A stretch of 40,154 bases of DNA, taken from positions 1 through 40,154 of the IMG/VR virus record IMGVR_UViG_2531839523_000012. One strand, given 5' to 3'. Within the stretch, counting starts at the first letter, position 1. Each line of letters starts with the position of its first letter. This DNA comes from a virus (taxonomy: Duplodnaviria; Heunggongvirae; Uroviricota; Caudoviricetes). This document shows, in pieces, positions 37,801 to 40,154 of the stretch. Made by a program: the position numbers.

Positions 37801-40154
37801 TTTTTTCAGTGTATACTTTTAGAAGTTTTTTTTTCGAGAATGACTTTTTAAAAATTCTGCTTGCAGTCATAGTCAATCCAAAGATATATTAATGGGAGTA
37901 TATAAAGGGCGGCAGTAGTAAATATTCGAAGTAATATCCATAAAATAACAATTATTTTTTCTTTTTGTGTGGGGATCCTCGTCGTAAGTCCAACTTGAGT
38001 TACCCTTGAAATTTTATCATCTATGTCACGGTGATTCTCAACCTCATTGAGCAAATTAAAATATTTTTCTTTCTGTTCAAGAGTTAACTGTTGACTGGTG
38101 GTAATGTCAAAATAGAGTCGCTGTAGTGCAATATAATTCCTTCTCATGGCTATTGCTCGACCACGAAAATCTAGGTTAGATACGATCAGAGAAATACCCA
38201 GTAGGGCCACCGAAAGTATTGCCGCAACGATATCTGTATTATCTCCTAGAACTTTTGGAAATCGCAACGTTACAATTGAAAGTACCGCACTCAATATAGC
38301 ATACCAAACGAGGATAAATTGAGAGTGCTTTTCAAGCCATTCTAGTCGATGGTGCGCTTGGATACGGGCTTTATATGTAAACCAAATATTGTCATGCATA
38401 AAAGATCCTTTTTAAAAGCGGAAGGGGCAGGATATATTGGAATCATTGAACATCCTGCCCGGCAGGATCAGTGAGCATAAGCTCAACAGTAAAATATTAC
38501 TGTTCATTATCAGAGCCGCCCTTGCATGCGCAAGAGGAAAAACCTGCCCCATCCTTTTGAATTATTACAATTTAATGATCTTAAAGTCAATACAAGCGAA
38601 TGGTGTCCAGAGATGATGAACTTAATGAACAAACCACTCGTCAGCAAACTCCCAAGTATCTTTCAGAGTCTCCTGAACAAAAGCCTTAGCAGAATCCTTA
38701 TCTGCGGTGTACGTAACAGGAAAATCATCGCTATGGTAGCTTTGACGCTCACCCCCATACCATAAAATATCAAGAGATTACGACTCATTTCCCCATGACT
38801 CTTCACCAACCAACAGTTCTATCAACATAAGATGTAAACTCATAAACTAAGCAAGATAAAAAAATTAACAGAATTTTGTTGATTTCATATCTGTGGAGTG
38901 TTAACTTAAAATGAGACCTGAAGTACTGAAGGTCTTTGACACACTGGAGAAGCAACTATGTTAACGCCGTTTGGTAAGACAGTAAGAAAAATGCGCATAG
39001 ACTTGGGGCTTACGCTTAAAAGCATGGCTGAGGCTATGGGCATGACCTCGTCTTATCTTTCAGCGATCGAAACTGGTAAAAGGGCGGTCACTAAGCCCGT
39101 GCTTGATAGCATCATTAGCTATTTTAATGCGGATGAAAAACAAAAAGAAAAGCTTATCAGTGCAGCTCGTGACTCTCAGCAGTCAGTAGAGATCAGCTTG
39201 TCAGGTAAGAATGGCCACGCTCGTGAAGTCGCAATTGCGTTCGCTCGTAGTTTTGATGAATTAAATGAAGAAGACTTCCGTAATTTACGACAGATTTTGA
39301 ATCGAAAACAGCAGTAGGAGGCGGCTTGAGCGGACAAGATTATCGTGTACCTCCGCAGAATCGTGAATCAATACGTTCTATCGTCACATCTCTGCGGAGC
39401 GCATTTGGTATTACTGGGCTTAAATTCCCTGTAATGGAGGTAATTGAGTTCGCATTGCCTCAGTTGATCCCGGATTTTGAGTTCCACATTGGTGGTATGA
39501 AAGAAATGGGAGAAACGCATGGTCTTACGTACCCACAGGAACATTTATTGATTCTGCGCGAAGACATTTACGAAGGCGCTTTGAATGGGGTAGGGCGAGA
39601 TAGGATGACTGCCGCGCATGAATTGGGTCATCTTCTTATGCACAGGAACATCGCATTTGCTCGTTCTGCCCCAGGGGTAAAAATCCGCCCTTTTGAGAGT
39701 AGTGAATGGCAAGCTAAATGTTTTAGTGGTGAGTTATTAGTGCCGGCTATGCATGCCAGTATTTTAAAAGGTATGACGGCTGAGGATGTTGCTAAGGCAT
39801 GCGGAGTTTCATTAGTGGCAGCGCGTTATCAGCTAGACAGAATGTAAAAACCCCTTGCTTGGCGCCAACCAGTGCAAGGGGCTTTAGGTGATGAATCCAA
39901 GAGGCATCACCACCGTGAACAGCTTCGATAGACAGCCTGAAATTAACACCTTCAGGGAAGATGTTCAAGGGAAAAATCTCTCTTGGTAAGGAGGTGTTTT
40001 ATGAATGGGTTTGAAATCAATTGCTTCAAAAGCGGCGCCCAAAGGGTTCCGTTGGGTTTTCTGCCGTTACCGCAAGGTGCGTGGGAAATCAAAAAAAGTC
40101 CTTGATGCTCATGATTACGGGTACGAGGCGTGGGCATTTTTAGTGCGCTGCTAA

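What the first reader, a model, noticed from the sequence alone, without database searches (positions are those of the whole stretch)
37848..38399. RT partner is a small membrane protein with a 2-TM core and overlapping translation
The 183-aa protein has an amphipathic N-terminal helix, two closely spaced TM helices, a basic juxtamembrane stretch (DFRGRAIAMRRNYIALQR) and a third C-terminal hydrophobic helix. Its stop lies 29 nt inside the RT start, implying translational coupling. This topology resembles small pore-forming effectors (2TM/SLATT-like) that partner with nucleotide- or RT-based sensors in abortive-infection systems.
Basis: inference. Interest (0 to 1): 0.7.

Follow-up and report, generated by a model that had tools for sequence, protein, structure and literature searches.

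The report
Known DRT10 defence system: SLATT effector

Summary
The 183-aa ORF at 37848-38399 (-) is real. It matches Pfam SLATT_5 (E 4.8e-28), NCBIfam SLATT_5 (133 bits, cut-off 60) and the PADLOC RT-associated SLATT model (E 7.9e-57). The gene downstream is a UG17 reverse transcriptase (PADLOC E 3.6e-158). Together they form DRT10, a published tripartite anti-phage system.

This is a 137-nt structured ncRNA at 38554-38418 (-), behind a sigma-70-like promoter. Its fold is supported by covariation in 14 distinct relatives. Its template loop reads CAAUGAUUC|CAAU. The reverse complement, GAATCATTG, is exactly the 9-nt cDNA repeat reported for Eco_3_DRT10.

Hydropathy and an AlphaFold model confirm two transmembrane helices, a conserved basic helical cytoplasmic region and a C-terminal hydrophobic helix.

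The SLATT/RT overlap is conserved. The conserved RT start is the ATG at 37870, giving a 23-nt overlap, not the TTG at 37876 that gives 29 nt.

Novelty: already known. How the cDNA controls SLATT remains open in the literature.

The parts
38561..38590 (-). Sigma-70-like promoter of the ncRNA (TTGACT, 18-nt spacer, TG-AATAAT)
   Evidence: The consensus scan scores it 10 of 12 with an extended -10 TG. The 5' end inferred for the ncRNA, 38554, lies 7 nt downstream of the -10 hexamer. TTGACT is conserved upstream in the enterobacterial relatives. Function as a promoter is inferred.
38418..38554 (-). DRT10 ncRNA, about 137 nt: a basal stem (GGGGCAGG / CCUGCCCC) closing four smaller stem-loops and a single-stranded template loop
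   Evidence: MFE -55.8 kcal/mol, z = -4.7 against shuffles. In 14 distinct relatives, 34 consensus pairs are 97% paired and 13 pairs carry compensatory changes. Slid controls give 47-57% paired and 0-4 such pairs. No shuffle out of 500 reached the observed values. The boundaries are derived by applying the published numbering (U110, C116, A117, U119) to this sequence.
38436..38448 (-). Template A-B-A': CAAU (38448-38445), GAUUC (38444-38440), CAAU (38439-38436)
   Evidence: The reverse complement of A-B is GAATCATTG, which is identical to the 9-nt tandem-repeat cDNA motif reported for Eco_3_DRT10. An A-B-A' pattern sits at the same place in the relatives.
37848..38399 (-). SLATT_5 membrane effector, 183 aa (the finding)
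   Evidence: Pfam PF18160 E 4.8e-28. NCBIfam NF033631 132.9 bits, cut-off 60. PADLOC RTasSLATT E 7.9e-57. Supported by hydropathy, the AF2 model and 57-sequence conservation.
36500..37870 (-). UG17 (DRT10) reverse transcriptase, 456 aa from the conserved ATG, with YVDD at 222-225 and a C-terminal Ser456
   Evidence: PADLOC RT_UG17 E 3.6e-158, 525 bits, full length. Pfam RVT_1. YVDD position and C-terminus ...ISGIS. S456 is the reported priming serine.
37848..37870 (-). 23-nt overlap of the SLATT 3' end with the RT 5' end, with the RT in a different frame
   Evidence: The ATG start is conserved in all relatives, whereas the TTG at 37876 is absent from the more distant ones. The overlap is 4-26 nt in every SLATT-to-RT locus examined.
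36401..36436 (.). 18-nt-arm palindrome between the RT stop and the convergent 95-aa ORF, possibly a bidirectional terminator
   Evidence: Inverted repeat I1, 89% complementary, no spacer. Function is inferred.

Best explanation
The ORF encodes the SLATT_5 effector of a DRT10 (UG17) anti-phage system of the SLATT-to-RT architecture. The system sits as an AT-rich moron at the right end of a lambdoid prophage beside prfC. The locus has three parts on the minus strand: a ~137-nt ncRNA, SLATT and the RT.

Shown for near-identical or related systems in the literature, and matched here by sequence:
- The RT binds the ncRNA.
- Priming from its own C-terminal serine, it copies the loop template CAAUGAUUC again and again.
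- It resets on the downstream CAAU and so makes long single-stranded (GAATCATTG)n cDNA.
- The ncRNA, RT catalysis and SLATT are all required for defence and for toxicity in sbcB-deleted cells.

Inferred:
- SLATT sits in the inner membrane. Its N-terminal helix and its conserved basic helical region (residues ~76-147) face the cytoplasm, and its third helix crosses or embeds in the membrane.
- SLATT oligomerises into a pore or otherwise damages the membrane, aborting the infection.
- Its activity is set by the state or amount of the repeat cDNA. The two published studies disagree on whether the cDNA restrains SLATT or activates it.
- The conserved overlap of the two genes keeps SLATT and RT co-expressed from one mRNA.
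For: Family assignments. The RT follows SLATT in every one of 29 related viral loci that extend far enough. The start and the overlap are conserved.

The ncRNA is supported by a significant fold, by covariation and by a promoter whose spacing fits the inferred 5' end. The template is identical to the Eco_3_DRT10 repeat, and all four published residue numbers fit.

Near-identical RT and SLATT proteins are listed in the DRT10 table of Tang et al., flagged as SLATT- and ncRNA-associated.

Published genetics: SLATT deletion, the YVAA mutation and ncRNA mutations abolish defence. Toxicity in sbcB-deleted cells needs all three parts.

Topology rests on hydropathy and charge and on the AF2 helices. 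GC drops to 33-36% over the cassette.
Against: No experiment was done on this exact locus.

The third helix falls below the hydropathy threshold in 10 of 57 homologues.

The two published studies report opposite changes in cDNA on infection, so the direction of control is unknown.

A 23-nt overlap is long for classical termination-reinitiation coupling, and the GGA upstream of the RT ATG is only a weak ribosome-binding site.
Confidence: 0.9

Rival explanations
1. It is a retron whose effector is a 2TM protein (Ec48-like). The upstream RNA would be an msr-msd, producing branched multicopy single-stranded DNA.
For: It pairs an RT with a small two-TM protein and a structured RNA upstream. PADLOC generic '2TM effector' models hit weakly, at E 1e-4.
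Against: The RT scores 525 bits on RT_UG17 but only 58.5 bits on retron_St85_RT, whose cut-off is 235. No retron model appears among the top PADLOC hits. Rfam found no retron msr or any other family here. The RNA has the DRT10 architecture and an A-B-A' template identical to a characterised DRT10.
Confidence: 0.02
2. It is a SLATT accessory of another RT system (DRT3, DRT9 or AbiA-type), or a SLATT effector driven by a cyclic-nucleotide signal (CBASS or Pycsar type).
For: SLATT proteins occur in those systems (Mestre 2022). Drt3a models hit the RT at E 1e-36.
Against: The Drt3a NCBIfam score is 110.9 against a cut-off of 200, and Drt2 scores 76 against 390. There is only one RT gene and no second UG8-type RT. 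No cyclase or SMODS gene lies within the region examined. The UG17 model wins by more than 120 orders of magnitude.
Confidence: 0.03
3. The neighbouring HTH and ImmA/IrrE protease pair (CapH/CapP-like) belongs to the system and gates SLATT-RT expression in response to DNA damage.
For: PADLOC capH (E 3.6e-10) and capP (E 7.7e-11) models hit the pair. The pair is transcribed divergently, about 370 bp from the ncRNA promoter.
Against: Most of the E. coli genomes listed as carrying this DRT10 lack the pair and have an intact DinI-like gene there instead. The pair occurs in only 13 of 5426 genomes. In NZ_AP026783 it occurs with a DinI remnant and no DRT10. A DinI remnant separates it from DRT10 here.
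Confidence: 0.05
4. It is an ordinary phage membrane protein (holin, superinfection exclusion or lysis accessory) that merely lies next to an RT.
For: It sits on a prophage near tail-fibre genes. PHROGs lists its family (phrog_20297) as of unknown function.
Against: SLATT_5 membership is above the curated cut-offs. Linkage and overlap with the RT are invariant across Enterobacterales, Pseudomonas and other hosts. It lies in a low-GC cassette distinct from the phage late genes.
Confidence: 0.01

Closest known systems
Eco_3_DRT10 (Tang et al., bioRxiv 10.1101/2025.10.16.682844)
   Same: The gene order is the same: ncRNA, SLATT, RT. The RT is 456 aa with YVDD and a C-terminal Ser456. Applying the paper's residue numbering to the window gives a ~137-nt ncRNA whose positions U110, C116, A117 and U119 all fit. 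The template is identical, CAAUGAUUC followed by CAAU, giving the GAATCATTG repeat.
   Different: I could not retrieve the Eco_3 sequence itself, so full identity is not proven. The closest proteins found in their Table S1 differ from the window's by a few residues. The window copy sits beside an extra HTH/ImmA insertion.
Escherichia sp. E3659 UG17-A DRT10 (Sanchez-Nieto et al., bioRxiv 10.64898/2026.04.29.721553)
   Same: It is a tripartite ncRNA-SLATT-RT module with overlapping SLATT and RT genes. The basal stem SL1 closes the ncRNA, and the template is flanked by short repeats.
   Different: E3659 uses the template ACUUAUUACU to make a 7-nt AGTAATA repeat. Its genes overlap by 1 nt, and the coordinates given in the paper correspond to a shorter RT, about 445 aa. 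Its probe sequence is absent from the window. I did not test the subtype by phylogeny.
DRT9 (UG28) and DRT3 (UG3+UG8) systems
   Same: They are class-2 UG RTs with a structured ncRNA template that make repetitive cDNA. SLATT proteins are sometimes associated with them.
   Different: They make poly-dA or poly(dTdG) products from inherently repetitive templates. In them SLATT is an accessory rather than the core effector. The RT here fails the Drt3a and Drt2 cut-offs.
SLATT 2TM effectors of CBASS and related nucleotide-signalling systems (Burroughs et al. 2015 definition, as cited; Pfam SLATT_1 to SLATT_6)
   Same: They share the two-TM core with a short loop and the predicted role as a membrane effector. 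Weak cross-hits to SLATT_4, SLATT_6 and SLATT_1 were seen.
   Different: The partner here is an RT with an ncRNA, not a cyclase. SLATT_5 carries a conserved cytoplasmic helical region and a third C-terminal hydrophobic helix.
Retron Ec48-type (RT + 2TM effector)
   Same: Both pair an RT with a small membrane effector and a noncoding RNA, and both work by abortive-infection logic (my own knowledge of retron Ec48).
   Different: The RT belongs to a different clade, the product is not msDNA, and the effector belongs to a different family.

Membership tests
SLATT_5 (Pfam PF18160 / NCBIfam NF033631) | Profile match above the curated cut-off over the whole domain | tested here: met
   Pfam 98.3 bits against 29.5, covering residues 2-172 on profile positions 9-189 of 192. 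NCBIfam 132.9 bits against 60.
SLATT_5 (Pfam PF18160 / NCBIfam NF033631) | Two closely spaced transmembrane helices forming the core | tested here: met
   Hydropathy peaks at residues 27-45 and 55-73 here and in 57 of 57 homologues. AF2 helices H2-46 and H55-74. No dedicated topology predictor was available.
SLATT_5 (Pfam PF18160 / NCBIfam NF033631) | Forms a membrane pore or is toxic when activated | not testable with these tools
   Only genetic evidence from the literature: SLATT is required for defence and for toxicity in sbcB-deleted cells.
DRT10 (UG17) defence system | RT of the UG17 clade with a YVDD active site | tested here: met
   PADLOC RT_UG17 E 3.6e-158, full-length. YVDD at 222-225.
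DRT10 (UG17) defence system | Adjacent SLATT gene, overlapping the RT in the SLATT-to-RT architecture | tested here: met
   The overlap is 23 nt here. The linkage and a 4-26 nt overlap are conserved in the related loci.
DRT10 (UG17) defence system | Structured ncRNA upstream of SLATT | tested here: met
   Fold z = -4.7. 13 of 34 pairs carry compensatory changes, with 97% paired against 47-57% in slid controls. Expression itself was not tested.
DRT10 (UG17) defence system | A-B-A' template in the loop 3' of the last stem-loop | tested here: met
   CAAU-GAUUC-CAAU at 38448-38436. Equivalent patterns occur in relatives. It is identical to the Eco_3 template.
DRT10 (UG17) defence system | Conserved C-terminal serine for protein priming | tested here: met
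   With the conserved ATG start, the last residue is Ser456, matching the reported S456. Priming itself was not tested.
DRT10 (UG17) defence system | Makes tandem-repeat cDNA and protects against phage | not testable with these tools
   Shown for homologous systems only.
Retron | Retron-clade RT plus an msr-msd RNA | tested here: not met
   retron_St85_RT scores 58.5 bits against a cut-off of 235. No Rfam retron hit.
DRT3 / DRT2 | RT above the equivalog cut-off | tested here: not met
   Drt3a scores 110.9 against 200. Drt2 scores 76 against 390.
CapH/CapP-regulated defence operon | The HTH-protease pair is consistently linked to the effector operon | tested here: not met
   The pair is absent from most of the listed DRT10-bearing E. 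coli genomes and occurs without DRT10 elsewhere.

The most novel reading that the evidence does not exclude
SLATT_5 is a three-pass (N-in, C-out) membrane protein. Its invariant cytoplasmic helical region between TM2 and the third helix carries D77, F78, R79, R81, N88, Y89, E121, N122, H123, D127, D128, R132 and R141. On this reading that region is a sequence-independent sensor of the RT-linked tandem-repeat single-stranded DNA, and multivalent binding along the repeat drives SLATT oligomerisation into a pore.

Sequence independence is suggested by one observation. E. coli alleles with 98% identical SLATT and RT proteins carry different templates, CAAUGAUUC against CAACGGUUC.

Neither this study nor the literature has tested any of these steps directly.
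Probability: 0.25. Interest if true: 0.5.

Novelty: already known. Interest (0 to 1): 0.15.

Why it matters
The locus is a clean natural copy of DRT10, the bacterial RT system proposed to be related to telomerase. Annotating it correctly, including the ncRNA and template that gene callers miss, is useful for prophage and defence-island annotation. It adds no new biology.

The real open question is how repeat cDNA switches a SLATT membrane effector on or off. That question is not advanced by this window. The conserved cytoplasmic residues listed here, and the natural template polymorphism between near-identical alleles, are concrete starting points for it.

Tried and rejected
- Rfam 15 scan of 36000-40154 at E <= 1: only a chance bantam microRNA hit at E 0.41. 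No DRT10 or retron RNA family exists there.
- Sequence search of the PDB with SLATT: nothing (best E 9.2).
- The afdb50 fold library was unavailable.
- I looked for the Eco_3_DRT10 accession or sequence in the supplements of Tang et al. The name and the ncRNA sequence were not found in the stored, truncated files. Only near-identical proteins in Table S1 were found.
- I considered the HTH/ImmA pair as a regulator of the system and rejected it on distribution.
- I considered the TTG at 37876 as the RT start and rejected it on conservation.
- I could not assign the UG17-A or UG17-B subtype phylogenetically. The assignment rests on architecture only.

Full report
**1. Observation**

The ORF at 37848..38399 on the minus strand encodes 183 aa from an ATG. 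AAGGA lies 7 nt upstream of that ATG.

Kyte-Doolittle analysis gives three hydrophobic segments:
- residues ~27-45,
- residues ~55-73, separated from the first by a nine-residue loop,
- residues ~148-173.

The N-terminal 26 residues and the segment after TM2 are rich in Lys and Arg: 4 and 12 K+R respectively. By the positive-inside rule this places both in the cytoplasm (inference).

An alignment of 57 homologues (52-98% identity) shows the following invariant or nearly invariant blocks:
- the N-terminal motif D-x-x-W-F-T-Y-K-A-R-I-x-A,
- the block N75-x-D77-F78-R79-x-R81-A-x-x-M85-x-x-N88-Y89,
- E121-N122-H123,
- D127-D128, R132 and R141.

AlphaFold2 on that alignment gives an all-helical model with mean pLDDT 76.9. 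Its helices are 2-46, 55-74, 78-98, 107-119, 125-134 and 145-181.

The first two hydrophobic helices pass the threshold in all 57 homologues. The third passes in 47.

The third helix's membrane insertion is the least secure element.

**2. The overlap**

In 29 related loci the only start codon conserved at the aligned N-terminus is the ATG that corresponds to 37870. The TTG is absent from the more distant relatives. RefSeq annotates the RT as 456 aa from this ATG. The RT sequences in the published DRT10 table begin MTASRIF.

The overlap here is therefore 23 nt, and it ranges from 4 to 26 nt in relatives.

Overlap of SLATT with the RT is a constant feature of this architecture, as also stated by Sanchez-Nieto et al.. 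Translational coupling is a reasonable inference but is not shown. The GGA 9-11 nt upstream of the ATG is a weak ribosome-binding site and also encodes a conserved Trp.

**3. What it is**

The protein matches:
- Pfam SLATT_5 at 98.3 bits against a cut-off of 29.5,
- NCBIfam SLATT_5 at 132.9 bits against 60,
- the PADLOC model 'RTasSLATT' at E 7.9e-57.

The downstream protein matches PADLOC RT_UG17 end to end at E 3.6e-158. It carries YVDD at residues 222-225 and ends in a serine at position 456.

That RT fails the curated cut-offs for four other families:
- group II intron RT (142 against 300),
- Drt3a (111 against 200),
- Drt2 (76 against 390),
- retron St85 RT (58 against 235).

UG17 plus SLATT was described as a stable association and a predicted defence system by Mestre et al. 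2022 (PMC9226505). It was named DRT10 and characterised by Tang et al. 2025 (10.1101/2025.10.16.682844). It was further characterised by Sanchez-Nieto et al. 2026 (10.64898/2026.04.29.721553).

**4.

Both papers report an essential ncRNA immediately upstream of SLATT.

In the window a sigma-70-like promoter lies at 38590-38561 on the minus strand: TTGACT, an 18-nt spacer, then TG-AATAAT.

The downstream 142 nt fold at -55.8 kcal/mol, with z = -4.7 and 0 of 200 shuffles folding as well. The fold is a basal stem (GGGGCAGG with CCUGCCCC) enclosing smaller stem-loops, with a single-stranded loop before the 3' arm of the basal stem.

I fetched 30 related loci from viral contigs. From them I extracted the upstream regions and aligned 14 distinct versions. 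The results were as follows:
- RNAalifold predicts 34 pairs, 13 of them with compensatory double changes.
- 97% of cells are paired, against 47-57% when the partners are slid by 1-3 columns.
- 13 pairs have changes on both sides, against 0-4 in the slid controls.
- No shuffle out of 500 reached the observed pairing, covariation score or number of doubly changed pairs.

The RNA structure is therefore under selection.

**5. The template**

The loop reads GUU-CAAU-GAUUC-CAAU-AUAU. This is an A-B-A' pattern with A = CAAU and B = GAUUC.

Tang et al. report for Eco_3_DRT10:
- a 137-nt ncRNA,
- a 4-nt A, a 5-nt B and an identical 4-nt A',
- named residues U110, C116, A117 and U119,
- the cDNA repeat 5'-GAATCATTG-3'.

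The reverse complement of the window's A-B is GAATCATTG.

If the first C of A is nucleotide 107, all four named residues fit. The RNA then spans 38554-38418, and its 5' end falls 7 nt after the -10 hexamer.

The same template occurs in E. coli IHE3034 and in strain 510016.

The window therefore carries Eco_3_DRT10 or a near-identical allele. I could not retrieve the Eco_3 sequence itself to prove identity. The paper's Table S1 does hold RT and SLATT proteins a few residues different from the window's, flagged as SLATT- and ncRNA-associated.

**6. Context**

RefSeq annotation of the two closest complete genomes shows the cassette at the right end of a lambdoid prophage. That prophage carries gpJ, Lom and side tail-fibre genes, and it sits next to a DinI-like gene and the chromosomal prfC.

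GC falls to 33-36% across the cassette, compared with 43-57% in the tail-fibre region. This is typical of an acquired moron.

Part of the 3.5-kb query spanning the cassette is matched in 870 of 5426 complete E. coli genomes. The top listed matches cover the RT, SLATT and ncRNA and are followed by a DinI-like gene. Only one genome, NZ_CP025851, shares the window's full arrangement with the HTH/ImmA insertion. In that genome an IS1 interrupts SLATT.

**7. Mechanism**

Steps shown in the literature for homologous systems:
- The RT binds the ncRNA.
- Synthesis is primed from the RT's C-terminal serine.
- The A-B segment is copied, and the nascent DNA realigns on A'.
- Kilobase-length tandem repeats result.
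- The ncRNA, RT catalysis and SLATT are each required for defence.
- In sbcB-deleted cells the system is lethal, and lethality needs SLATT, an active RT and the ncRNA.

Steps inferred:
- SLATT is the membrane-damaging effector.
- It reads out the repeat cDNA.

The two groups disagree on the direction of control. Tang et al. see cDNA fall on infection and suggest that the cDNA restrains SLATT. Sanchez-Nieto et al. see first-strand cDNA rise and suggest that accumulation activates SLATT, with SbcB and a phage SSB-like protein setting the threshold.

My own small addition concerns sequence specificity. E. coli alleles with about 98% identical SLATT and RT proteins carry different templates, CAAUGAUUC against CAACGGUUC. 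This argues against sequence-specific recognition of the repeat by SLATT. It agrees with the published tolerance of template mutations.

**8. Rivals**

- A retron with a 2TM effector, a DRT3/DRT9/CBASS-type SLATT and an ordinary phage membrane protein are all rejected by the profile scores and the conserved linkage.
- The neighbouring HTH plus ImmA/IrrE pair hits the PADLOC capH and capP models. However, it is present in only 13 of 5426 E. coli genomes. It occurs without DRT10 in NZ_AP026783. Here it is separated from DRT10 by a DinI remnant. I treat it as an independent insertion.

**9. Structure comparison**

**10. Verdict**

The locus is a member of a known and recently characterised system, so its novelty is 'already known' and its interest is low. 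The remaining open question is how the cDNA controls SLATT, and that question belongs to the field rather than to this window.

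Noticed in passing
window 38958-39847 (+): An HTH protein (119 aa) and an ImmA/IrrE M78 metalloprotease (173 aa, HELGH motif) resemble the CapH/CapP regulators in PADLOC. The 1.4-kb block occurs in only 13 of 5426 complete E. coli genomes. Elsewhere it sits beside a DinI remnant without any DRT10. What it regulates here is unknown.
   Followed up: partly
window 38622-38756 (-): This is the C-terminal remnant of a DinI-like gene (…[24 protein letters not shown]). In most related prophages an intact DinI-like gene follows DRT10, so the HTH/ImmA block appears to have been inserted or recombined into it.
   Followed up: partly
L001 (NZ_CP025851) 10449-11777; L005 1756-1824; L009 ~3529-4012: Some copies of the system have decayed. 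An IS1 sits inside SLATT in the only complete genome that shares the window's arrangement. One viral contig has a nonsense codon at SLATT codon 23. Another has a disrupted RT. This may reflect a fitness cost of the system, but the evidence is only anecdotal.
   Followed up: no
window 36105-36392 (+): A 95-aa hydrophobic protein (phrog_1443, unknown function) converges on the RT gene. It is retained next to DRT10 in two prophages whose tail-fibre genes differ.
   Followed up: no
window 36401-36436: A near-perfect 18-nt-arm palindrome with no spacer lies between the convergent 95-aa ORF and the RT stop. It is probably a bidirectional terminator.
   Followed up: no
window 38436-38448 (-) versus L007 and related loci: The template is polymorphic between near-identical alleles. 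The window and IHE3034 have CAAUGAUUC|CAAU. Most E. coli viral-contig copies have CAACGGUUC|CAAU. More distant relatives have 9-11-nt variants at the same loop position.
   Followed up: partly
L003, L004, L006, L017 (IMG/VR contigs): In four viral contigs the record starts exactly at the SLATT start codon, so the contig as stored excludes the ncRNA and its promoter. This may reflect where the prophage boundary was called.
   Followed up: no
window 32895-35102 (+): The tail-fibre gene has a long run of Ala/Ser/Thr-rich repeats (…AAKTSETNAKSSQT…) and a strong local AT skew. This is typical of lambdoid side tail fibres. The gene is annotated as truncated in the closest genome.
   Followed up: no
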